A stretch of 64,000 nucleotides of DNA from a virus. Shown in pieces: positions 11,961 through 38,099 of the stretch (positions within the stretch are counted from its first letter, which is position 1; each line of letters starts with the position of its first letter). The notes below the pieces were generated by a model. The model made no database searches and was not told where the DNA came from. It saw only the letters and a list, made by a program, of their open reading frames with translations. The stretch covers positions 1 to 64,000 of the IMG/VR virus record IMGVR_UViG_3300038678_000291. One strand, 5' to 3'. Position numbers and translations under genes: made by a program.

Positions 11961-12539
11961 TCATGCTATTTTGGTCTCCTGCCCTTTGTATATTATTGGG
12001 CTGGAAACGCCGTTTTCTTGCTTCAGCTTTTCCATTTTTTTCACAAAATCCGTGACTGGTTTTAATCCTACTGGTTCAAGGGGCAGCTCCCCCTGTATCC
12101 TTTCCATCTTCACGGTGATTATCTTACCCGTATTATGAAATAGCCAGCTAGCAAGCTCTTCACTGGTGTTTACATCCTCCAGGGTAAGCTGGAGAATGGC
12201 GACCACTTGATCATCCAGCTTCTTAACGACAACCACGGCTTTAGATAATCGCCTTGCCCCCAAGGGTATCCAATTACCTTCGCCTTCGCCAACCAAGCGA
12301 ATATCGTATACTTCGTTGAGCAACGGAATATTGCTATACTCAACCTTCTTTTCCTCAGCAAATGCAGGGTCAAGAAACCTCTCCAGCCGTATACCCATGT
12401 CGGCCATCTCTGCCGGACAATCATCAATTCTGGTCGCAAAACTAAACTTAGCGGATTTACAAACCGTTCCGCCCTCAATTGTATACTTTCCTAATTCTAC
12501 CTGTAGTTCCATTTCAGCCCTCCTTTTGTTAATATTCAC
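11961..12539 (-). CDS. Hypothetical protein (likely start ATG 12512)
   Basis: Long ORF; AGGAGG RBS before MELQVEL. Confidence 0.6.
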   Translation of the reverse strand: MNINKRRAEMELQVELGKYTIEGGTVCKSAKFSFATRIDDCPAEMADMGIRLERFLDPAFAEEKKVEYSNIPLLNEVYDIRLVGEGEGNWIPLGARRLSKAVVVVKKLDDQVVAILQLTLEDVNTSEELASWLFHNTGKIITVKMERIQGELPLEPVGLKPVTDFVKKMEKLKQENGVSSPIIYKGQETKIA

Positions 12540-12564
12540 AACAATCGACTGCCGCCCTTAGTTA

Positions 12565-13378
12565 ACAGTTGCAACACCTCACATTACTTTACCTCTCCTT
12601 GCTTTTACAATTCGGCACTGCACAACACTTCACTTCACATTGACTTAACCCTACGAAAGCGCATTCTGCCCTCGCTATGCTAAACGGGACCAGACTTTTG
12701 CTCTGCCGCCACAGTACCATACATCGCCAGGCTCTTACTGGACTTATCCTCGCTCTGCACCACCACTACCTCTCCTTACCATACAATACATATACTTTGC
12801 TTAACACTTCTCTGTTGTGCCTCTACCATATCTAACCCTTCTACACACAAACAAAACTAGACCGCTCCCTACATCACAGATACCTTGATCCACCTTGCCG
12901 TGCCCTTGCTTAACGTTTCCATACTAAACAAAACCCCCACGTATCCATACCATACAGCACTCTACGGAACTATACCCTTACCTCGCTGATCTTTGCCCTG
13001 CTGTGACTCTGCTACTCGGTACATCACTGCGCCCCGCCGTTACCTTACCCGACTGCACCTCGCAAATACTCGGCGGTACTCACGCCCAACCAAACCGAAC
13101 CTTACCCGACCTTGCCATCACTTGACTTCACATGACAGCACCGCGCTTTACTTAGACCCTACTCAACAGTACACTACACTTGCCTTACTAGACTTCACTA
13201 CACCGTAACCAAACCACACAGCACACATCAACACCCTGCCTTACCACAACCGTACCTTACCTGTCTGCACTATCACCTTACCTTGCTTTACCTTTCAACA
13301 CCCGACACTAGCTTTGATTTTCCCCACTTGGCCTGACCGTACATTGGCCTTTCTGTACTTTACCGGGCTACCACAAGA
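12565..13378 (-). repeat. Non-coding tandem NGY-NN pentamer array, candidate guide-RNA locus
   Basis: Minus strand parses as GGT-AA AGC-AA GGT-AA GGT-GAT AGT-GC ... GGC-AA GGT-CG GGT-AA GGT-TC GGT-TT GGT-TG ...; roughly 150 units; no credible ORF. Confidence 0.88.
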
Positions 13379-14083
13379 CTATTTTTTGGCATAAACATTG
13401 GTGGTGGTCATTTGGAAATAATCGCTTTTCTCCTTTTTCCAAAGCTCATACGAAAACGATCCATAGCGGGCTGTCCGCCACTGGGCAAGTCCAATGAACT
13501 GTCCATAGAGCAGCAATAGCCTCAATTGCTGTTCGCTGAGCAATCCCAATAATACGGTAATCTCAAGCTCCAATGAGCTTCCGGCCAGAATCTTATCTGA
13601 TCGGGCCACAAAAACCCGGGGGCCCTGCTTGGTTTGCCCGCGGAGGGGTCTTTCCAGGTTCCCGTCAGGCACCTTGATAAAATACCCCTCCCTGCTCTTG
13701 ACATGAAGCCGCCTTGGGCCTACCTGTACCAGGTTTGAGATATGGTGCCGGAGGTTGGTGATCCCTATCCCCTTGTTGGTTTTCAGGGTGTTACCTGCGT
13801 GCTTCAGGTACCCCCTTATCATATAATCATAGAAAAACAGCCCCTTATCGTCCTGGTGAAATCCTGTCCAACCCTTTTCCTCTTCGTTGAACTCCGACAA
13901 TGTATCCGTCTCATTATCCGTGACAGTTTGGGGTTTCTTGCTTTCTATGAACGCCTTGTAGACTTCCGGGTCCTTGGGGGCGGTTCCCAGGACATCCTCC
14001 AAGAAAGTCAATTTGGTGCCATAGACTGCACTGTCGAAAGTCAAGACCGCCGCTTCATCCTTCTTCTTTTTTTTCTCCGTCAT
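13379..14083 (-). CDS. Stand-alone Cas7/RAMP-like protein
   Basis: KLTFLEDVLGT first strand, FFYDYMIRGYLK (compare the Cas7 xxGxxIRGxLR helix), basic thumb ERPLRGQTKQGPR, C-terminal G-loop YGQFIGLAQWRTARYGSF; GGAGG RBS. Confidence 0.75.
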   Translation of the reverse strand: MTEKKKKKDEAAVLTFDSAVYGTKLTFLEDVLGTAPKDPEVYKAFIESKKPQTVTDNETDTLSEFNEEEKGWTGFHQDDKGLFFYDYMIRGYLKHAGNTLKTNKGIGITNLRHHISNLVQVGPRRLHVKSREGYFIKVPDGNLERPLRGQTKQGPRVFVARSDKILAGSSLELEITVLLGLLSEQQLRLLLLYGQFIGLAQWRTARYGSFSYELWKKEKSDYFQMTTTNVYAKK

Positions 14084-14101: not shown

Positions 14102-15445
14102 TTAGTTAATCTTTGTGATCCTGCCACCTTCAATGACGATCCCGACATTGCCGGTCTCGTCAACTACTTCCATTAAGACGGTTAGGTCGTTCTCCCCGGC
14201 GAATTCATCTATAATCTTCATGTTGTCGCTATCCAGTGAGCTTCCCTCGTATATCCGGATCAGGCTTGCTTTTGGATTCATCTTCGCCGATATTGCCAGT
14301 CCAACCTTTATCCTTTCGGATTGGCTGCCCTGTGCCAGGGGTAACCCATTGAATCTGATCCCGGTCTCGTCAACACTTAATCCATGTATGGGGAATTTTG
14401 CCCCTTGCAATGCTCCGTCTTTTTGGTTATCTAGTTCTCCTATGTCATGGGTTAGATTGTTTGAATCATCGTGCAACGATTCAATCACCATTTTTAATGT
14501 AATTCTTTTTGACTGTTGGTTTTGGGCTTCCCTGATTTCCCTGTTCGTTTCCTCCGCCTCTGCTATTTTGAGTCCAATAGCATCGAAATCAGGATCGATT
14601 AAACCATCAAGTTGTTGCTGGAGACTATCCCGTAAGAAACTTTTTTTCTTGAATGATTCTTGTAATCCTGATAATTGTCTTTTATTGTCTTCAATGGCAA
14701 GCTCTAGTTCTACTATCTCGTTTTTAGTGACAGTAATTTCATCGTTATAATGCAGAACATCCTTGTTTGCTGCATCCAAGTCTTTCCGTATCTTGTCGTT
14801 ATTGGTTTTGATTTCTGATGCCTCACCATATTTTTGCGTAAGTTCGATTATACAAACCTCATCAACCAGCAAGTCGGGATTAGGCAGCTCTATCCCCGCC
14901 AACTCACCGTTTTTGTCTTTGGCGTTTCTGTTTACCCGGGTTCTCTCGTCATATAGAACTTGCCTGTCCCGCGCCAATTCATCAAGATCGATTTCCACCC
15001 CGGCCAGCTTCAATAATATATCCCTAGCCTTTTTGGGTTCTTTTAGCATCTTGCGAGTAAACTCAAGTGGATCGATTGTCAATGGCCCCAGTATATTGTC
15101 AAGCATTGTTTTGGGGCTTTTAAACTCAGCCCCATTTTTGCTTGTTAAGATTAGTTTAGATGCAAGCACATCGCCCTTCAGCAGCCAAAATTTCCTGGTG
15201 GCTGTATATCCCTCCATCTCAACTACGACATACCCCTTTTTCTCGCCCCTGCTAATCGGTTCTGCCGGGCAGAGCGCAGTGCCCCCCACTACTATCGCAA
15301 AAAGATCAAGGGCAGTGGACTTCCCGGCATCATTTCTCCCCGATATCTTCACCACGTGTTTGCCTTGCAGGTCAATCTTTACCGCTTTGAGCTGCATGAT
15401 ATTGTGGGCTTCCAGTCCAATAACCCTACCGCCGCCGTCTTTCAT
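14102..15445 (-). CDS. SMC/Rad50-like AAA ATPase with coiled coil
   Basis: GRNDAGKS Walker A, long coiled coil, degenerate signature (QGSQSE) and IRIYEGSSLD. Confidence 0.85.
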   Translation of the reverse strand: MKDGGGRVIGLEAHNIMQLKAVKIDLQGKHVVKISGRNDAGKSTALDLFAIVVGGTALCPAEPISRGEKKGYVVVEMEGYTATRKFWLLKGDVLASKLILTSKNGAEFKSPKTMLDNILGPLTIDPLEFTRKMLKEPKKARDILLKLAGVEIDLDELARDRQVLYDERTRVNRNAKDKNGELAGIELPNPDLLVDEVCIIELTQKYGEASEIKTNNDKIRKDLDAANKDVLHYNDEITVTKNEIVELELAIEDNKRQLSGLQESFKKKSFLRDSLQQQLDGLIDPDFDAIGLKIAEAEETNREIREAQNQQSKRITLKMVIESLHDDSNNLTHDIGELDNQKDGALQGAKFPIHGLSVDETGIRFNGLPLAQGSQSERIKVGLAISAKMNPKASLIRIYEGSSLDSDNMKIIDEFAGENDLTVLMEVVDETGNVGIVIEGGRITKIN

Positions 15446-16294
15446 TTTAATCCCTCCATGTTTTCAATTAATTCTTGGATTTCATTGCCCAGGTCTAAAA
15501 AGCTATCATCGTCATAAGATTGACCCTCTTCTCTGATTGCAATGAGTTGGTTTGCCGCTATCATGGCCTCCCTGCGGCAGAGAATATATTCTAGTTCCAG
15601 CCTGGTCGCCAATAGCTTGATTGACAATAATTCATGCTCGTTCAATTTCACCTTACCTCCCTCGTTTCAGGGTAATGCCAGGTTTTACATCCATGTTTTT
15701 CACAACATATAATCTTACAAATCGTTGGATTTTTTTCTGGAATATCTGATGGTTTACACCATTCACATATATACTTAATTTTTTCGCTGTCTTTCATTTT
15801 ACCTCCTTCTTTCTTGGGCGAATTTCAACATCTGTTCACTGGAAATCAGCTTTTTCGTTAATAAATTGCCAAGAATGCTGTGCCGTTTTCTCCACCACTT
15901 TTCCCTTCTTTTTTCAAAAATGATTCCGTCTGAGGGATTAATTAAGCGGAATAAATCTTTAAACACTCTTAGCGTTGCCACATCTCCTGCTTTCACATAT
16001 GCCTTGTTTCCTGAAAGAATAGTCAACACCATCCCGGGCTTTTTTTGATAAACTTCGTTAAGAAAATCAAAATATTCGGTCGCTTTGCTTTCTGTTGTCA
16101 TTCTATTACACTTACCATTCTATGTGATCGGTAAACCCGCATTCAGGGCAGGTTACCGTGTCAGGGGGGTCTGTTGAATTATCCTCCGGGTCTGGCCCGC
16201 CGCCGCCTTGCAGCCTTAAACGCTCGCCGCATACCGGGCAAAAGAATTCTGGAGTTTTGTCGCCGTTTGTTTCTATCCAGTGAGTTGGCTTCAT
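15442..16294 (-). CDS. Small hypothetical genes (15442-15651, 15799-16101, Zn-ribbon 16112-16294)
   Basis: Co-oriented ORFs; CPVCG...CPECG in the last one. Confidence 0.5.
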
Positions 16295-16608
16295 TCCACG
16301 TATCTCCCTGTTCTGCCAGTTTCGTGGTCATAAAACTGTCCTCTCGCAAGTTTTATCGCAGGTTTTATGCCACTTGGCCGTGCCACCTCTCTGTATTTGG
16401 CATCCTCCCATTTCCCAATGATTTTCGCTAGGGGCACCCCTATTGCCCCTGCAATCTTGTTCATTGTGGATAAAGTAGGATTTGGAAGCCTACCCAATTC
16501 TATCCGGTTATAATAATCCCTGGTCAGTCCTGCTCGGAGAGCAACCTCAACCTGCTTCAGGTTAAGGTCAAGCCTGACTTTCCTGAAAAGTGATCCTATG
16601 TGCGTCAT
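16291..16608 (-). CDS. XRE-family HTH regulator
   Basis: LKQ.EVA..AGL...Y.NRIELG..PNPT. Confidence 0.88.
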   Translation of the reverse strand: MTHIGSLFRKVRLDLNLKQVEVALRAGLTRDYYNRIELGRLPNPTLSTMNKIAGAIGVPLAKIIGKWEDAKYREVARPSGIKPAIKLARGQFYDHETGRTGRYVE

Positions 16609-16847
16609 GATTTTTTCTCCCCATCATAAATAATAATCAACCTACAGTTTAGCGCCTTCAAAATCCTCTTTATCGTTTTTACCCCTGGATTTGGTGTTAG
16701 CCCTTTCTCAATATAAGATATTCCACGCGGTGCTATACCAGCTTTTTTCCCTAATTGTTCTATGGACAGACCGACATGCTCCCTATATATCCGGATTGCC
16801 TTGCCCACAGAGATTACTGGCGTTGAGGTTGTTTTGTCGTCTGTCAT
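16605..16847 (-). CDS. XRE-family HTH regulator
   Basis: GLS.EQL..KAGI....ISYIEKG..PNP. Confidence 0.88.
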   Translation of the reverse strand: MTDDKTTSTPVISVGKAIRIYREHVGLSIEQLGKKAGIAPRGISYIEKGLTPNPGVKTIKRILKALNCRLIIIYDGEKKS

Positions 16848-28311: not shown

Positions 28312-29206
28312 ATGAAATCAATTTATTTCGCTTCCTCTTTTTGGGATGATGACTTTATTTTTGACCTAAGCATTACCGCAAAACTTTTTTATATTTTTTT
28401 AATCACAAACAAAAATGTTTCACCAAGTGGGCTTTATAAATTGGGGAAAATTGAAAAACTAAAAGCTGGATTAACGCAAGCTCAAATCAATAAAGCATTT
28501 CAAGAACTTAATGGTAAGGTATATGTGTTTGGTGAGTGGATTTTTATAAAAAATTTACTTTTTAAGTCGTTTTTAGATAACAGCACAGAAGAAAAATTTC
28601 TAAAATCAAACATTTTTACAATGATAAAAGACCAATTTTCCAAAAATAGTTTTTCGCCAGAACTAATTGAAATATTTCTTAAAACCTATCCTTTCTTTGC
28701 CCCTTATAAGCCCCTTATAAGCCCCTTACTAGCCCCTTATAAGGGGGGGGGGGGGTACCCTTCTCCATACTGATACTGATACTGATACTGATACTGATAC
28801 TGAAAAAGATATTGAAAAAGATATTGCTCAGCGCGATAAAAAGACATCGCTCCAAGCCGAAGCTTCGCAACCTGAAATTATCTTATCAATCCCATTAATC
28901 AAGAGAGATGGTGAATTTCGCATCTATCAGCCAGACATTAATCAATGGCAGGATACTTTTCCCGGTGTGGATGTGAGGCAAAAACTAAGGGAAATTAGGC
29001 AGTGGAACATTGACAACCCAACAAACCGCAAAACTAAAAGCGGTATTTGTAAACATATATCAGTATGGTTGAGCGGGGAGCAAAACAAGATGGGTAATTA
29101 TAAACAACCACAAAAAAAAGATTGGAATGTGAAGGAAAAATTGGCGCAGGCGGAGAGATTTTTAAATCAAGAAGGGGAATATAGCGATGAAGATCAAACA
29201 AATTAA
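28312..29206 (+). CDS. Phage replication initiator, interrupted by a frameshift at a G13 tract
   Basis: N-terminal FW.D...LS..AKLFY.FL.TN domain; iterons; removing one G gives an open frame through TDTDTD into the ..W...NP..RKT..G....I..WL C-terminal domain (297 aa). Confidence 0.8.
28699..28802 (+). repeat. Probable origin: 4 x 11-bp iterons GCCCCTTAYWA, G13, 6 x ATACTG
   Basis: Iterons at 28699, 28710, 28721 and 28732, inside the initiator gene. Confidence 0.8.
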
Positions 29207-32495: not shown

Positions 32496-33101
32496 ATGAT
32501 CACCCATCTTTGCGTCCAAAATCCTGTTGCAGGTGAACTTAAAGGGGTTTGCGTTGTTTGTGGCCAACAAACCCTTACTGGATATAAATTACCTTTTTCG
32601 GATAATTTCACAGGATATTCCTATTTGTCTCATGGGGACTTAACCTGTCCCCGTTGTTATACCTTTTTCAAAACCCCTGAGTTTAGGCGAAAATCATGGA
32701 TAGCTTCTCAAGACGGAGTCCTATATCTGAAGCGCCTTGAATGCAGGCAGCATATTCTTAATCCCCCAACTCCACCGTTTTTTCTTTATATTACCAAAAC
32801 CGGACAAAGACAAGGGTGGTTATCTGCTTTGAAACTTATGAATTATAGTCAAGGCAGATTTTATATTTCAACGGATTGGGTGGGGCATTTTTTGGTTGAA
32901 AGGAGCGAAGCACTGATAATGGCTACTCAAATTGCATTTCTTAGGGAACGGGAAATTTCAAAAACTACTCTTTTAACTGGCAATCCTAGCATGAAACAAT
33001 ATAGGCTTGCCATAGAGGGTGGGTGGGAAGGAGAGTTTGGAAAAATTAGAAAATATGTTAAACAACCACTTTGGGAGGTGATGGTATATGTCTCTGAATG
33101 A
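32496..33101 (+). CDS. csf1: Csf1 (Cas8-like large subunit, type IV)
   Basis: CVVCG...NFT....CPRC Zn finger, L.PP.PPF; first gene of the operon. Confidence 0.72.
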   Translation: MITHLCVQNPVAGELKGVCVVCGQQTLTGYKLPFSDNFTGYSYLSHGDLTCPRCYTFFKTPEFRRKSWIASQDGVLYLKRLECRQHILNPPTPPFFLYITKTGQRQGWLSALKLMNYSQGRFYISTDWVGHFLVERSEALIMATQIAFLREREISKTTLLTGNPSMKQYRLAIEGGWEGEFGKIRKYVKQPLWEVMVYVSE

Positions 33102-33435
33102 GGCACAAGAAAAGGCCCTGGTTGAATTTCTGGCTATAGTTTATGGCCGCATTCCCTGGGGAAAAATGCGGACATCAAAAAACCCCCATGATATTTTCAA
33201 TCATCGGGTGCGGGCAGCTACCAGAAGGGCGACTCTTTATGGGTTTGCCTCAAAACTGTGTAATTATTTTGGGCTTCAAACATTACCCCTTGAGGCTCAA
33301 GCGTTGCTTGATTTGCTGAGGCCAGAGGAGCAGCGAATATTAAGCACCTTATCCTCAGAACATATTCCCTGGTGTGTTAGGGGGATAATCAGATCAAAAG
33401 AGATGAAACTCAAAAACAAGGAGGCCGGCAAATGA
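33088..33435 (+). CDS. Cas11-like small helical subunit
   Basis: 115-aa helical protein between csf1 and csf2. Confidence 0.6.
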   Translation: MSLNEAQEKALVEFLAIVYGRIPWGKMRTSKNPHDIFNHRVRAATRRATLYGFASKLCNYFGLQTLPLEAQALLDLLRPEEQRILSTLSSEHIPWCVRGIIRSKEMKLKNKEAGK

Positions 33436-34268
33436 TTGAGAAATATGATGGCTGGATATTAGCCAAAAGCACCATTCATCATGGCGGGAACGAGAAAACC
33501 GGCAGCACCCCCGTACTTAGAACAATCTATCTGTATGTTGAAGGCCAGGGGGAAATACCCTTCCCATATATCAACGGTAATGCTATTAGAGGTAAACTGC
33601 GAAGGCTGCTGATGCGGGAGTTTTTTCAGCTTATAGGATTAGAGCCGGAAAATCTCAAAACCAAACTATATCATATTTTTTTCACCGGGGGAGTATTAAC
33701 AAGTACCGAATCTTCCTATGCTACAGTGGACTTGGAATTAAGGAAAGAAATCCGTCGGTTGCTACCCCCGCTTGCTTTGCTTGGCGGTGCCATTGGAAAC
33801 CAGATGATACCGGGAAAGCTGAAGGTGGGCCACGCTTTTCCTGTTTGCCAGGAATATGCTCAATATCTTCCTGAAAGGCTAAAAGCAGATAAACGGGTTG
33901 GCATGTCGGTACGAAGCTTCACCGATGAGTCGTTCAATACCAGAAAAGATGATTTGCGGGCAGGTCGGGCAGAAGATGAACAGGCGACCCAAATGAAAAT
34001 AGAGTTTGAATGTTTCATTCCTGGCACAAAATTCTATCACTGGTGGGTGCTGGAGTGGCCCACAGAAATAGAAAAAGCCTGTTTCGGCAGATTGATTGAG
34101 GTCTTTCAATCATCTCCTTTTGTTGGGGGGAAGTTGTCTTCCGGCAACGGAGATGTGATGTTTGAGTATCAACCAAAAACACCTTCAGCACAACCGTATT
34201 TGGAGTTTGTGCTGAAACACAAAACGGACATCCTTCCACTTCTTCAGACCATTGAGGACAAGTTATGA
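33432..34268 (+). CDS. csf2: Csf2 (Cas7-family backbone, type IV)
   Basis: IHHG, P.INGNAIRG.LRR, FFTGG.L, P.ALLGG..GNQM..GKL, TRKDD, QM....E....GT, VGG..S.G.G. Confidence 0.9.
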   Translation: MIEKYDGWILAKSTIHHGGNEKTGSTPVLRTIYLYVEGQGEIPFPYINGNAIRGKLRRLLMREFFQLIGLEPENLKTKLYHIFFTGGVLTSTESSYATVDLELRKEIRRLLPPLALLGGAIGNQMIPGKLKVGHAFPVCQEYAQYLPERLKADKRVGMSVRSFTDESFNTRKDDLRAGRAEDEQATQMKIEFECFIPGTKFYHWWVLEWPTEIEKACFGRLIEVFQSSPFVGGKLSSGNGDVMFEYQPKTPSAQPYLEFVLKHKTDILPLLQTIEDKL

Positions 34269-35005
34269 TTGAGCAAGAAATGACCTATTTCCTTGATTCT
34301 TTCCTTTTGGGGACATCAAGAAGATATAGACCAATGAAATACGAGTCATTAAAAATCACCTTTTGGCTTTCGGCCCCCATATCTCTTACCCACCCCTGGA
34401 TGCACTTTGATGGGCTTATAGGACATCTCTTGACGATAGATGCTCTTGGGCAGGATTTTTATTTACTGCCCAGAAAATTCCCGCTTTCTCGTATGCTTCG
34501 GCAAGTAAAGATTCCACCGTTTCCCATCAAACATACCAGGGGAATGTATCACGCCTCGGCATCCATTTTTGATACCGGCAGGAAGTCTCTTGAAATTATG
34601 TATAAAAAATTTGAGGATCGGTGGGCAGGCGGCAGAAGAAAAGTATCTAAGGGAATGGGATATTTTCGGGACTATATGATCCAACACATCTATATTCCCA
34701 CAAAAACCGTAATATTCTATGTAATGGGAGACAGAAAAACTTTGGAGCAACTTTGTCACTTGGTAACAGGGTTAGGAGACAATACCCGCGTAGGGTGGGG
34801 AGCGGTGAGAAGACATGAGATAGAAGACATGCAACAAGATTGGAGTATTATAAAAAATGGGATTGCTATGCGCCCTATCCCCGAAAAATTGATTGAATAC
34901 ACTTCCTTAAAAGTTGCTGTGGCCTGGAAACCCCCATATTGGGCGCCAGAATGTGTTGGAATATGTGCACCACCTGGTGCAGAGGTGAAACTGAAAAATG
35001 GATAA
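34265..35005 (+). CDS. csf3: Csf3 (Cas5-family, type IV)
   Basis: FDGLI, G.F.DY, FY..GD...L..L....LG.....GWG.V, RPIP, PPYW. Confidence 0.85.
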   Translation: MIEQEMTYFLDSFLLGTSRRYRPMKYESLKITFWLSAPISLTHPWMHFDGLIGHLLTIDALGQDFYLLPRKFPLSRMLRQVKIPPFPIKHTRGMYHASASIFDTGRKSLEIMYKKFEDRWAGGRRKVSKGMGYFRDYMIQHIYIPTKTVIFYVMGDRKTLEQLCHLVTGLGDNTRVGWGAVRRHEIEDMQQDWSIIKNGIAMRPIPEKLIEYTSLKVAVAWKPPYWAPECVGICAPPGAEVKLKNG

Positions 35006-35690
35006 ACAGTGGAGGGAAACATTTTTGCTTCATGCCAGAAGCGAAGAATATATCCAAAAAATTCAGGAAGCAGAGTACAATATTTTAACTACCCTTCTGC
35101 GATATAAAAAACCCTATGTGGCCTTTTCTGGGGGTAAGGATTCAACCTGTATGTTACATTTAGTATTGCAGCAAGCTTTAAATACGATGATTTTACATTG
35201 GGATTATGGCAGATTTTATATTCCTTACTACCTACACAACGAATTAATAGAAAACGCACGCAGATGTGGAGCAAAAAATCTTCGGATAGAAACATCTAGT
35301 CTATATGAAAAACTTGGCCGAAAGGCAATTAATGTATTGGGTAAAGAAATGATGGAAAAACTTATCCCTCAACTGATAAAAGAAGGCTACGATGTTGTTT
35401 TTGTTGGCTTACGAATACAAGAATCAGTTAAACGGAAACTAAGAATCAAAGCAGGGAGAAGCCTTACAAATATTTTTGAAGTATGGCCATTAAAAAACTG
35501 GTCATGGCTTGATGTATGGGCATATATCATCTCCAGTAAAATTCCTTATCTTTCTTATTATGATAAATATGCTCCTGTTGTGGGATGGGATAAAGCTAGG
35601 TTCACTACTTTGTTTGATCCCGAATTTGATAAATTTGGCTGTTCTAATGTTGATGGAATATTGTCTTGGAAATATAGGAATTTAATATGA
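34998..35690 (+). CDS. CysH/PAPS-reductase-like protein (type IV-B accessory)
   Basis: AFSGGKDS PP-loop, GLR..ES..R, PL..WS..DVWAYI....IPY...Y. Confidence 0.9.
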   Translation: MDKQWRETFLLHARSEEYIQKIQEAEYNILTTLLRYKKPYVAFSGGKDSTCMLHLVLQQALNTMILHWDYGRFYIPYYLHNELIENARRCGAKNLRIETSSLYEKLGRKAINVLGKEMMEKLIPQLIKEGYDVVFVGLRIQESVKRKLRIKAGRSLTNIFEVWPLKNWSWLDVWAYIISSKIPYLSYYDKYAPVVGWDKARFTTLFDPEFDKFGCSNVDGILSWKYRNLI

Positions 35691-37175: not shown

Positions 37176-38099
37176 ATGATTAAAACACTTGCTATTCACG
37201 GAGGCGGAATTAGGGGGATTATTCCAGCGGTAATATTAAATTGGATGGAAAAACATGTCGGTAAGCCAATTGCGGAAATATTTGATTTAGTCGCAGGCAC
37301 TTCCACCGGTGGGATTCTAGGGGCAGCCTTAAGTATTGGGTTCACCGCCGAAGATATAATTGGGATGTACGAATATGAAGGAGAGCAAATTTTCCCTCAA
37401 TCTGTATGGCGAAGTTTACACACCATTGGCGGTGCCGCCGAGGAGAAATACCCGTCGGGAGGAATTGAGGCAGTGCTACAAAAGTATTTTGGTACCCACA
37501 AACTATCTGATGCCGAAACAAATCTTATCATTCCCACCTATGACATAGAGCGCAGACGCCCAATTTTTTTCAAATCGTATAAAGAAAAATTTAAGACTAT
37601 TTTGATGTGGCAAGTGGCTCGGGCTACCTCCGCAGCCCCCACATTTTTTGAACCGTACAAATGGTATATGCCCAACGGCGATTATTTTTCTCTTATAGAC
37701 GGGGGGATGTTTGCTAACAACCCGGCCATGTGCGCCTATGTAGAGGCATTGGCTGAGTTTGATGCAACTGATTATATGGTAGTCTCATTGGGTACTGGGT
37801 CAGCAACACAACCAATTCTACATGAAGACGCACAGGGTTGGGGGTTGGTTGGGTGGGCACCGCATATTCTTGATATTAACTTTGATGGCCAATCAGACAC
37901 AGCAGACTATCAACTTAATCGGCTTTTGCCATTGAATAGATTCTATAATTTTCAGCCCATGTTAGTTGGCGTAAATGAGGCAATGGATGATGCCAGCCCT
38001 GAGAACATCCGGGCATTGAAGCTGCTGGCCGAAAACTATATTGAAGACAATAAGTCAATGCTGGAGGCTCTTTGCGATATTCTGGCATATCAAGTTTAG
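37176..38099 (+). CDS. Patatin-like phospholipase
   Basis: GGGIRG, GTSTG, ATSAAPTFF, DGG..ANNP, SLGTG. Confidence 0.95.
   Translation: MIKTLAIHGGGIRGIIPAVILNWMEKHVGKPIAEIFDLVAGTSTGGILGAALSIGFTAEDIIGMYEYEGEQIFPQSVWRSLHTIGGAAEEKYPSGGIEAVLQKYFGTHKLSDAETNLIIPTYDIERRRPIFFKSYKEKFKTILMWQVARATSAAPTFFEPYKWYMPNGDYFSLIDGGMFANNPAMCAYVEALAEFDATDYMVVSLGTGSATQPILHEDAQGWGLVGWAPHILDINFDGQSDTADYQLNRLLPLNRFYNFQPMLVGVNEAMDDASPENIRALKLLAENYIEDNKSMLEALCDILAYQV

What the first reader, a model, noticed from the sequence alone, without database searches (positions are those of the whole stretch)
12565..14083. Lone Cas7-like gene plus an NGY-NN pentamer RNA array: candidate non-CRISPR RNA-guided system
Seen in sequence: a 234-aa gene (13379-14083, -) has RAMP/Cas7-type features: first strand KLTFLEDVLGT, helix motif DYMIRGYLK (parallel to GNAIRGKLRR in this phage's own Csf2), a basic thumb-like hairpin, and a terminal glycine loop GQFIGLAQWRTARYGSF. 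From its stop codon it is followed by about 810 nt of non-coding DNA with 5-nt periodicity. The transcribed strand reads conserved triplet (mostly GGT/GGC/AGT/AGC/TGT) plus variable dinucleotide, e.g. GGC-AA GGT-CG GGT-AA GGT-TC GGT-TT GGT-TG. There are no CRISPR repeats, cas1/2/5/6 or nuclease beside it. Established: Cas7 proteins polymerise on RNA with a fixed nucleotide step. Inference: each subunit grips one triplet and displays the NN, so the concatenated dinucleotides form a gapped guide against DNA or RNA, probably for silencing rival phages or host defence genes. From memory this resembles recently reported viral Cas7-like plus GGY/NN repeat systems (called VIPR); I cannot verify that here, and this array is more degenerate than GGY. 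It sits in the early transcript two genes from the recombination cluster.
Basis: partly seen in the sequence, partly recalled or inferred. Interest (0 to 1): 0.96.

Follow-up and report, generated by a model that had tools for sequence, protein, structure and literature searches.

The report
Phage VIPR system with staggered guide array
A marine-sediment phage carries a small Cas7-like protein gene followed by about 820 bases of five-letter-repeat guide RNA genes, which makes it a further example of the CRISPR-like VIPR systems first described in 2026; what its guides target is still unknown.

Summary
This is a known kind of system, not a new one.

- **Protein.** The 234-aa protein (13379-14083, -) folds as a single-domain RAMP (pLDDT 84). 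All its best structural matches are CRISPR Cas7 backbone subunits (Z up to 12.3). Its family profile aligns over the full length with the experimentally characterised Vipr of phage phiSUSP1 (hhalign 95.5 %, E 1.6e-8).
- **Array.** The ~820 nt after the stop codon hold about 161 units with consensus D-G-Y-N-N (lag-5 z = 9.6). They form 27-28 blocks of 5-8 units, each closed by a 6-nt unit.
- **Conservation.** The gene plus array is a conserved module: 75 of 80 viral loci and 46 of 53 cellular loci carry it. No neighbouring gene is conserved with it.
- **Variation.** Near-identical phages differ by whole blocks, much like CRISPR spacers.
- **Scaffold letters.** The two residues that read G1 in SUSP1 are replaced here (T34, Q201), which fits the degenerate first letter.
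- **Prior description.** The VIPR preprints already mention YNNNG-type repeats and "staggered" arrays.
- **Open points.** Transcription could not be tested, and no credible target was found.

This scan has noted VIPR loci in more than 330 other genomes.

The parts
13379..14083 (-). vipr gene: a 234-aa single-RRM RAMP (Cas7-like) protein. In the model: beta1 residues 18-27; helical insert 39-61; RRM helix-1 86-102 (DYMIRGYLK...); thumb beta-hairpin 141-165 (RPLR...QGPR); helix-2 184-195; G-loop 194-209 (GQFIGLAQWRTARYGS); beta4 210-216.
   Evidence: ORF and RBS. AF2 model pLDDT 84, pTM 0.78. Foldseek: 110 hits at E<=1e-3, and all 40 rows printed are CRISPR RAMPs. VIA-align Z 12.3 to type VII Cas7 and 12.0 to Csm3. 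hhalign against the SUSP1 Vipr clade: 95.5 %, E 1.6e-8, 177 columns. The family has 1,422 representative clusters.
12556..13378 (-). Putative vrRNA array: about 161 D-G-Y-N-N units in 27-28 blocks of 5-8 units. Each block ends in a 6-nt unit (+1 register shift). No conserved leader, 3' tail or ribozyme was detected. The array runs from the vipr stop codon to the RBS of the next gene.
   Evidence: Lag-5 z = 9.6. Phasing and position weight matrix. Hexamer punctuation and block sizes. Super-period of about 31 nt across 69 arrays. No Rfam match. No significant RNA structure, z = -1.2. The repeats lie on the same strand relative to vipr as the experimentally detected SUSP1 vrRNAs.
12935..12975 (-). 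Example block (8 units; block 14 of the full block list, index 12 in the listings): GGTAT AGTTC CGTAG AGTGC TGTAT GGTAT GGATA CGTGGG. It was used as a test guide.
   Evidence: Its 1-nt-skip pattern hits one AT-rich phage lineage in frame. No other guide converges on that lineage, so the hit is treated as chance.
14102..15445 (-). Context: SbcC-like AAA ATPase gene. It is co-oriented and ends 18 nt before vipr, so it is probably in the same early or recombination transcript. It is not conserved with vipr in relatives.
   Evidence: phrog_1499 at 1.9e-66 and AAA_23. No homologue in the 80 related loci.
11961..12539 (-). Context: 192-aa gene of unknown function directly after the array. It has only a sub-threshold MerR_2 HTH hit. 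It is a positional candidate for an accessory (vap-like) gene, but it is not conserved with the module.
   Evidence: E 0.0039, below the cut-off; no homologue in related loci.

Best explanation
The locus is a VIPR (Viral Interference Programmable Repeat) system, of the kind with a relaxed scaffold (N-G-Y rather than G-G-Y) and a "staggered" array.

**Shown here:**
- The gene encodes a Vipr-family RAMP protein.
- The adjoining non-coding tract is a pentamer array on the gene's sense strand.
- The pair is conserved as a self-contained module in hundreds of phages and prophages.
- The array evolves by gain, loss and replacement of whole blocks.

**Inferred from the homologous SUSP1 system (published biochemistry and cryo-EM):**
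- The array is transcribed with the early operon.
- Vipr protomers polymerise on the RNA, one per 5-nt unit. Each flips out and grips the G-Y scaffold bases and displays the following NN.
- The displayed dinucleotides pair with double-stranded DNA while skipping every third target base.
- The bound filament blocks transcription of a competitor's gene (a rival phage, a satellite, or possibly a host defence gene).

**Further inference specific to this family:**
- Each 5-8-unit block closed by a hexamer is one guide cassette with 10-16 specified bases.
- The first scaffold letter is free because the two residues that read G1 in SUSP1 (H17, D177) are T34 and Q201 here. The G-loop residues for G2 and Y3 are kept: W178 and R179 correspond to W202 and R203, and M72 to M88.
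For: - **Fold.**: RAMP only, Z up to 12.3.
- **Homology to the characterised Vipr.** The family profile finds the SUSP1 Vipr ORF (E 2.1e-4). That ORF's residue numbering matches the cryo-EM paper. hhalign profile against profile gives 95.5 %, E 1.6e-8, over the full length.
- **Array.**
- **Positive control.** The same method recovers the four published SUSP1 vrRNAs on the vipr sense strand.
- **Conserved gene-array linkage.** 75 of 80 IMG/VR loci and 46 of 53 cellular-genome loci, with an array elsewhere in the locus for 6 of the 7 exceptions. No window neighbour is conserved with the module.
- **Guide-like evolution.** Gene 99-100 % identical and upstream DNA 91-98 % identical, but arrays only 62 % (74 % in a pair with an identical gene). 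In one clade, 21 distinct arrays are built from 202 blocks, with collinear sharing and single-block swaps.
- **Substitution rates.** Within homologous blocks the rate at G2 is 0.022 and at Y3 0.048, against 0.079-0.109 at positions 1, 4, 5 and the extra base.
- **NN composition.** It best fits sense-strand codon positions 1-2: r = 0.76 for the window and 0.68 for other arrays, against at most 0.53 for the other phases and strands. This agrees with the published wobble-skip targeting.
- **Published precedent.** Alternative YNNNG repeats and staggered arrays with 1-nt offsets are mentioned.
Against: - There is no direct evidence of transcription, processing or RNA binding. No RNA run holds the locus.
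- No credible target was found. The local search showed no enrichment for the 1-nt skip. Two IMG/VR scans gave chance-level hit counts. The one in-frame cluster showed no convergence of other guides.
- Single blocks specify only 10-16 bases, much less than the 18-32 bases of SUSP1 guides, so the real guide unit may be different.
- No accessory vap gene, 3' tail or ribozyme was found, although published types usually have one of these.
- The thumb region does not align reliably, so the residue that reads G2 from the thumb is not identified.
Confidence: 0.85

Rival explanations
1. The array RNA is not a set of guides. It is a scaffold, sponge or decoy. Vipr (the phage's own or a competitor's) coats it, for example to titrate a rival's Vipr or to regulate the downstream genes of the same transcript. 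The NN would then carry no targeting information.
For: No target was found. The array lies inside an operon just before another gene's RBS. The NN are strongly A-rich: AA is 19-26 % of dinucleotides. The third VIPR paper shows that mobile elements fight over VIPR with standalone vrRNAs.
Against: Block-wise replacement between phages with identical genes, and the high diversity of blocks (202 in one clade), are hard to explain for a mere scaffold. The NN composition tracks codon positions 1-2. The homologous SUSP1 RNAs are proven guides.
Confidence: 0.08
2. The protein is a stray or degenerate CRISPR Cas7, perhaps belonging to the phage's own type IV-B module. The repeat tract would be unrelated simple-sequence DNA or a DNA-level element such as an origin or a recombination site.
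For: The best fold matches are CRISPR Cas7 proteins. The same genome has csf1, csf2, csf3 and cysH. The locus lies next to recombination genes.
Against: The type IV-B operon is 20 kb away on the other strand and has its own Csf2. The protein matches no Cas7 family model in NCBIfam or Pfam, yet it aligns over its full length to Vipr. The gene-array pair is conserved in more than 120 loci with no cas genes and with changing neighbours. The repeats have a strict strand polarity relative to the gene.
Confidence: 0.03
3. It is a VIPR-like RNP that targets RNA rather than DNA, or that uses a pairing rule other than the 1-nt skip (for example one that reads the extra base or position 1).
For: The skip rule has been tested only for type II and by bioinformatics for types III and V. 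Here the scaffold differs (N-G-Y), units of 6 nt occur, and the 1-nt skip gave no enrichment. The NN composition matches the sense strand only, which would also fit antisense-independent mimicry of mRNA.
Against: The G-loop, helix-1 and bundle residues that build the skip geometry are conserved: K33 corresponds to K43, M72 to M88, and W178/R179 to W202/R203. The target searches were too weak to reject the rule.
Confidence: 0.12

Closest known systems
Type II VIPR of Escherichia phage phiSUSP1 (KT454805.2; Vipr ALH47069.1, vap1 ALH47068.1, four vrRNAs); bioRxiv 10.64898/2026.04.26.720920 and .720927
   Same: Both have a small single-RRM RAMP protein, and the two are homologous over the full length. 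Both are phage-borne. Both have pentamer repeats on the vipr sense strand with invariant G2, a pyrimidine at position 3 and variable NN. The G-loop W-R and the helix-1 Met are conserved.
   Different: - Protein identity is only about 19 % in the profile alignment.
- The G1-reading residues H17 and D177 are T34 and Q201 here, and position 1 of the repeat is free.
- SUSP1 has four discrete RNAs of about 100 nt, each with 12-14 repeats, a conserved leader and a 3' pseudoknot tail, and no register slips.
- The window has one ~820-nt tract of 27-28 blocks of 5-8 units, punctuated by hexamers, with no tail.
- SUSP1 has vap1; no conserved accessory gene is seen here.
VIPR systems with 'staggered' vrRNA arrays and alternative YNNNG/NNNGG repeats (fig. 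S18 legend and type-classification methods of 10.64898/2026.04.26.720920)
   Same: Successive guides are offset by one nucleotide within a continuous array. Only G and Y of the scaffold are conserved.
   Different: The figure, the tables and the type assignments are not available here, so identity of architecture and type could not be verified. Seven types but only six vap families are listed, so one type may lack a vap, as this family does. That is an inference.
CRISPR Class 1 backbone subunits (type VII Cas7, type III Csm3/Cmr4, type IV Csf2)
   Same: Same fold: RRM core, thumb hairpin and glycine-rich loop. Z is 10-12. These proteins polymerise on RNA with a fixed step.
   Different: There is no CRISPR array, no Cas5, Cas6, Cas10 or Cas11 partners, and no adaptation genes. 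The step is 5 nt instead of 6 nt. The protein matches no Cas7 family model.

Membership tests
VIPR system (Vipr + vrRNA) | Small protein with a single-RRM RAMP fold, including a thumb and a glycine-rich loop | tested here: met
   AF2 model pLDDT 84. It shows a thumb hairpin at 141-165 and a G-loop at 194-209. Only RAMPs match it, Z up to 12.3.
VIPR system (Vipr + vrRNA) | Sequence homology to an experimentally characterised Vipr | tested here: met
   The family profile hits the SUSP1 Vipr at E 2.1e-4. hhalign profile against profile gives 95.5 %, E 1.6e-8, 177 columns.
VIPR system (Vipr + vrRNA) | Flanking non-coding tract of tandem pentanucleotide repeats, with a conserved GGY (or related) scaffold alternating with variable NN, on the vipr sense strand | tested here: met
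   161 units of D-G-Y-N-N, lag-5 z = 9.6. The scaffold is the relaxed YNNNG-type named in the paper's methods.
VIPR system (Vipr + vrRNA) | Variable positions are hypervariable among relatives while the scaffold is conserved | tested here: met
   block swaps occur between phages with identical genes, and G2 and Y3 change 2-4 times more slowly than positions 1, 4 and 5.
VIPR system (Vipr + vrRNA) | Minimal locus outside any CRISPR context, on a virus or provirus | tested here: met
   The record is an IMG/VR virus record with phage genes. No Cas1 and no CRISPR repeats occur in 83 kb. An unlinked type IV-B operon lies 20 kb away.
VIPR system (Vipr + vrRNA) | Accessory vap gene (described as 'typically' present) | tested here: not met
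   No neighbour is conserved with the module. The 192-aa gene after the array has only a sub-threshold HTH hit. This feature is not an obligatory part of the definition.
VIPR system (Vipr + vrRNA) | vrRNAs are expressed and co-purify with Vipr | not testable with these tools
   No RNA run holds the locus and read-laying returned nothing.
VIPR system (Vipr + vrRNA) | Targets dsDNA by the 1-nt-skip rule, with natural targets in competing mobile elements | tested here: inconclusive
   There was no enrichment in 1.4 Mb of held sequence. Two IMG/VR scans gave chance-level hits. One in-frame cluster had no convergence of other guides. The NN composition fits codon positions 1-2.
Type II VIPR (SUSP1 / P. 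fulva clade) | Discrete vrRNAs of 9-16 GGY/NN repeats, each capped by an invariable structured 3' tail; vap1 present | tested here: not met
   The array is continuous, has blocks of 5-8 units and no tail or leader, and position G1 is free. Contrast the SUSP1 control. No vap1 homologue was found.
CRISPR-Cas Class 1 effector (Cas7 of types I, III, IV, VII) | Cas7 is encoded in an operon with other effector subunits and acts on crRNA from a CRISPR array | tested here: not met
   The neighbours are an ATPase, HTH regulators and genes of unknown function. There is no CRISPR array. The protein matches no Cas7 HMM.

The most novel reading that the evidence does not exclude
In this large Vipr clade the 6-nt units act as punctuation. 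They break the 5-nt protomer register, so that one long transcript is read as a string of one-turn mini-filaments of 5-8 protomers. The published filament has 5-6 subunits per helical turn. Each mini-filament would be an exchangeable guide cassette with only 10-16 specified bases, possibly without RNA cleavage, and specificity would come from many cassettes acting together.

The clade also uses a two-letter scaffold (G-Y), because its G1-reading residues changed from H/D to T/Q. That would be a distinct operating mode of VIPR (short multiplexed guides and a relaxed scaffold), and it goes beyond what the preprints' main text describes.
Probability: 0.3. Interest if true: 0.6.

Novelty: new member of a known kind. 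Interest (0 to 1): 0.35.

Why it matters
VIPR is a very recent class of programmable RNA-guided DNA binders and a proposed ancestor of CRISPR RAMPs. So far it has been characterised experimentally almost only in one E. coli phage clade.

This locus documents a much larger and more distant clade: 1,422 representative clusters, spread from gut Clostridia to Planctomycetota and one archaeon. It gives three concrete, testable points about that clade:
- a two-letter scaffold that can be explained by two residue changes;
- hexamer-punctuated short guide cassettes that are swapped between near-identical phages;
- no dedicated accessory gene.

The locus is also a compact candidate (a 234-aa protein plus a programmable array) for testing how short a VIPR guide can be. 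It does not change the picture of what VIPR is.

Tried and rejected
- **Family libraries.** Pfam, PHROGs and NCBIfam give no hit for the protein.
- **PDB sequence search.** It returns only spurious low-complexity matches to RidL/interaptin. No VIPR entry was seen among the sequence or Foldseek hits.
- **Rfam.** A permissive scan of 11.5-14.5 kb finds nothing, so no hammerhead ribozyme.
- **Promoters and terminators.** The scan shows no excess over shuffles.
- **RNA fold of the array.** Not significant, z = -1.2.
- **Expression.** No RNA holder is listed for the locus. Laying the one DNA run returned no contigs.
- **Protein atlas.** The look-up of the downstream 192-aa protein was unavailable.
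- **Accessory gene.** No window neighbour has a homologue in the 80 loci. Clustering of flanking ORFs over the 154 related viral and cellular loci gives only generic XRE HTH regulator pairs upstream.
- **Targets, local search.** 336 guides of at least 6 units were searched against 1.4 Mb of held sequence. The 1-nt skip gave 39 perfect hits, against 21-41 for the control rules.
- **Targets, block 5.** The IMG/VR scan gave 12 hits forming no dominant lineage cluster.
- **Targets, block 14.** The IMG/VR scan gave 17 hits. Eleven of them are one in-frame site (codons M-S-R-A-I-M-Y-G) at about codon 660 of a ~2,400-aa ORF in one AT-rich phage lineage. The other guides match that lineage no better than shuffled controls, both in the held loci and in two near-complete genomes: 3 perfect hits against 2.2 expected, and 67 one-mismatch hits against 58. 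The match does not extend into the adjacent blocks (my own reading of the sequences, not a script). It is therefore rejected as probable chance.
- **Solo vrRNAs.** None were found elsewhere in the genome.
- **Position 1 as a pairing base.** This was considered. On the single block-14 site I compared by hand, it matched the skip base at 3 of 7 positions, which is about chance level (the site itself is probably a chance hit). Its depletion in C looks like a structural constraint.
Full report
**1. Observation**

The minus-strand gene at 13379-14083 encodes 234 aa behind a strong GGAGG site. It follows an SbcC-like ATPase gene by 18 nt.

From its stop codon to about 12556 there is no credible ORF. 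The transcribed strand is G-rich and C-poor (G 307, C 103 of 839 nt). It shows a strong 5-nt periodicity: lag-5 identity is 0.427 against 0.280 +/- 0.015 in shuffles, z = 9.6, with further peaks at lags 10 and 15 and then at 16, 21 and 26.

A phase-tracking model gives about 161 units with consensus D-G-Y-N-N:
- Position 1: G .41, A .34, T .20, C .05.
- Position 2: G .95.
- Position 3: T .66, C .24, G 0.
- Positions 4-5: variable and A-rich.
- Information per position: 0.26, 1.64, 0.79, 0.17 and 0.10 bits.

This is the only extended 5-nt-periodic tract in the 83-kb genome, and no solo tracts occur elsewhere. Only G2 and Y3 are truly conserved. The register also slips by +1 every 5-8 units.

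**2. The protein**

Pfam, PHROGs and NCBIfam are silent on it. It nevertheless has a large unannotated family: 88 close clusters and 1,422 representative clusters at E<=1e-3 in the whole-library HMMER search. More than 560 relatives occur in IMG/VR and 74 in cellular genomes from many phyla.

With a 44-sequence alignment, AlphaFold2 gives a confident model (pLDDT 84, pTM 0.78). Its topology is beta1, a helical insert, helix-1, a long beta-hairpin (141-165), helix-2, a glycine-rich loop and beta4.

Foldseek against the PDB returns 110 hits at E<=1e-3. Every row printed is a CRISPR RAMP: type VII Cas7, Csm3, Cmr, Cas7-11 or Csf2. An independent all-against-representatives alignment gives Z 12.3 (type VII Cas7), 12.0 (Csm3) and 10-11.8 for further type III and IV backbone subunits.

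**3. Is it a Vipr?**

VIPR systems pair a Vipr RAMP with vrRNAs made of GGY/NN pentamers. They recognise dsDNA while skipping every third target base, and they silence competing phages and satellites.

The founding phage phiSUSP1 is in the phage collection. My family profile finds exactly one ORF in its 90.7-kb genome (E 2.1e-4). That ORF's numbering from the annotated ATG reproduces the residues cited in the cryo-EM paper (H17, K33, E71, M72), and it is followed by a 146-aa gene, which I take to be vap1.

I built a SUSP1-clade alignment and compared the two profiles. The result is 95.5 % probability, E 1.6e-8, over 177 aligned columns, which is essentially the whole protein. The window's protein is therefore a distant (about 19 % identity) but full-length homologue of an experimentally characterised Vipr.

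The alignment is informative at the RNA-reading residues:
- The two G1 readers of SUSP1 (H17, D177) are T34 and Q201 here. Both are invariant in this family.
- The G2-stacking W178, the Y3-contacting R179 and M72, and the skip-base-side K33 are retained as W202 (F in most members), R203, M88 and K43.

This matches the array, where G2 and Y3 are conserved and position 1 is free. The correspondence is an inference from an alignment, not a structure. The thumb region does not align reliably.

**4. The array is part of the system**

As a positive control, the same periodicity analysis on phiSUSP1 recovers the four published vrRNAs on the vipr sense strand.

In the homologous loci, a 5-nt-periodic tract begins within 160 nt of the stop codon in 75 of 80 IMG/VR loci. 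Its median length is 420 nt and the maximum 960 nt. The same is true of 46 of 53 testable cellular-genome loci, and 6 of the 7 exceptions have an equally strong tract elsewhere in the locus.

None of the window's neighbouring genes has a homologue in the 80 loci. The only widely shared neighbours are generic XRE-type HTH regulator pairs 0.8-1.8 kb upstream, seen in 78 loci and also present in the window. Gene plus array therefore travels as a self-contained two-part module in the early or immunity region, without a dedicated accessory gene.

**5. Architecture**

Register slips are almost always +1 nt. Over 69 arrays the mean autocorrelation peaks at lags 5, 31, 62 and 93. Lag 31 (0.415) is nearly as strong as lag 5 (0.427).

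Parsed explicitly, the arrays consist of blocks of 5-8 units. The mode is 6 (267 blocks of 5 units, 294 of 6, 151 of 7), and each block is closed by a hexamer. The window has 27-28 such blocks.

No leader, 3' tail, ribozyme or significant secondary structure was detected. By contrast, SUSP1 has discrete RNAs of 12-14 repeats with a leader and a tail and no slips.

The preprint mentions "staggered" arrays whose successive vrRNAs are offset by one nucleotide, and alternative YNNNG repeats. This is very probably the same architecture, but the figure and tables are not held.

**6. Guide-like evolution**

Pairs of phages with 99-100 % identical vipr genes and 91-98 % identical upstream DNA have arrays that are only 62 % identical (74 % in a pair whose genes are identical).

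In a clade of 23 loci (genes at least 90 % identical) there are 21 distinct arrays, built from 202 distinct blocks. Of these, 53 are shared between arrays. The shared blocks are collinear but show single-block insertions, deletions and replacements, which looks like CRISPR spacer maps. In that clade the block borders carry a conserved motif (N-GCAA-N | GGAA). The window has no obvious border motif.

Within homologous blocks, substitution rates by position are:
- G2: 0.022.
- Y3: 0.048.
- Positions 1, 4, 5 and the extra base: 0.079-0.109.

The NN dinucleotide spectrum correlates best with sense-strand codon positions 1-2. The correlation is r = 0.76 for the window and 0.68 for other arrays, against at most 0.53 for the five other phase and strand models. 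This is a soft signal that agrees with the published placement of the skip base on wobble positions. The AA excess (19-26 %) shows that composition is not explained by codons alone.

**7. Targets**

No target was found.
- 336 guides searched against 1.4 Mb of held sequence showed no enrichment for the 1-nt skip (39 perfect hits against 21-41 for controls).
- The window's two 8-unit blocks gave 12 and 17 exact IMG/VR matches. I estimated a few tens of chance hits for 16 specified bases; that is a rough figure, because the collection's size is not given.
- Eleven of the 17 are one site, in frame on the sense strand at about codon 660 of a ~2,400-aa ORF of one AT-rich (32 % GC) phage lineage.
- That cluster is one independent event. 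The other guides match that lineage no better than shuffled controls, in the held loci and in two near-complete genomes. I treat it as chance.
- No RNA data exist for the locus.

**8. Mechanism**

Shown here: a Vipr-family RAMP gene, its conserved linkage and polarity with a D-G-Y-N-N array, and cassette-like turnover of blocks.

Inferred from the homologue: co-transcription with the early operon; one protomer per unit sequestering the G-Y scaffold and displaying the NN; gapped pairing to dsDNA; and transcriptional silencing of a competitor.

More speculative: the hexamer interrupts the 5-nt protomer register, so each block forms a separate filament of about one turn (the published filament has 5-6 subunits per turn). 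A block would then be a short guide of 10-16 specified bases.

Rivals are a non-guide scaffold or decoy RNA, a different pairing rule or an RNA target, and a stray Cas7 with unrelated repeats. The last is clearly disfavoured.

**9. Novelty**

The class, its code, the relaxed repeat variants and the staggered arrays are in print (April-October 2026). This scan has already noted VIPR-type loci in at least 330 genomes, including a separate note on this same stretch about the hexamer punctuation. I therefore file it as a new member of a known kind.

What this analysis adds is the quantitative description of the block grammar, the block-level turnover, the absence of a conserved accessory gene in this clade, and the residue-level rationale for the free first scaffold letter.

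Noticed in passing
window 32496-35690 (+): An array-less type IV-B-like CRISPR effector operon sits in the same phage: Csf1 (TIGR03114, 3e-7), Csf2 (TIGR03115, 1e-13), Csf3 (TIGR03116, 1.5e-16) and a CysH/PAPS-reductase-like gene. No CRISPR repeats occur in 28-40 kb. This phage therefore carries two unrelated RAMP-based systems.
   Followed up: partly
window 37176-38099 (+): A patatin-like phospholipase matches the CBASS CapV model NF041079 (1.3e-58, 198.8 bits, against a cut-off of 200). It is encoded by a phage.
   Followed up: no
window 28690-28814: Two adjacent short tandem repeats: four copies of an 11-nt step (CCCCTTATAAG-like), then ATACTG hexamer repeats. They may be iterons or an origin-type element.
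   Followed up: no
L026-L083 and other related loci, 0.8-1.8 kb upstream of vipr; window 16291-16847: Divergent or tandem XRE-type HTH (cI/Cro-like) genes lie upstream of the Vipr module in 78 related loci. The module therefore habitually sits at the immunity or early-gene switch.
   Followed up: partly
L148 and L151 (Porcincola intestinalis isolate genome, NZ_VULZ01000001.1 and NZ_VULZ01000014.1): A cultured isolate carries two distant copies of the Vipr-like gene (28-29 % identity to the window's protein). It could serve as an experimentally tractable host for testing natural targets in a complete genome.
   Followed up: no
L173, L175, L179, L186 (IMG/VR); G001:C1:16218-16240: An AT-rich (32 % GC) phage lineage has a ~2,400-aa ORF. 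[quoted passage not shown]
   Followed up: yes
gut-phage clade L026-L079 (arrays after vipr): Block borders in this clade carry a conserved motif (N-GCAA-N followed by GGAA or GGCA). It could be a processing or filament start/stop signal. The window's array lacks it.
   Followed up: partly
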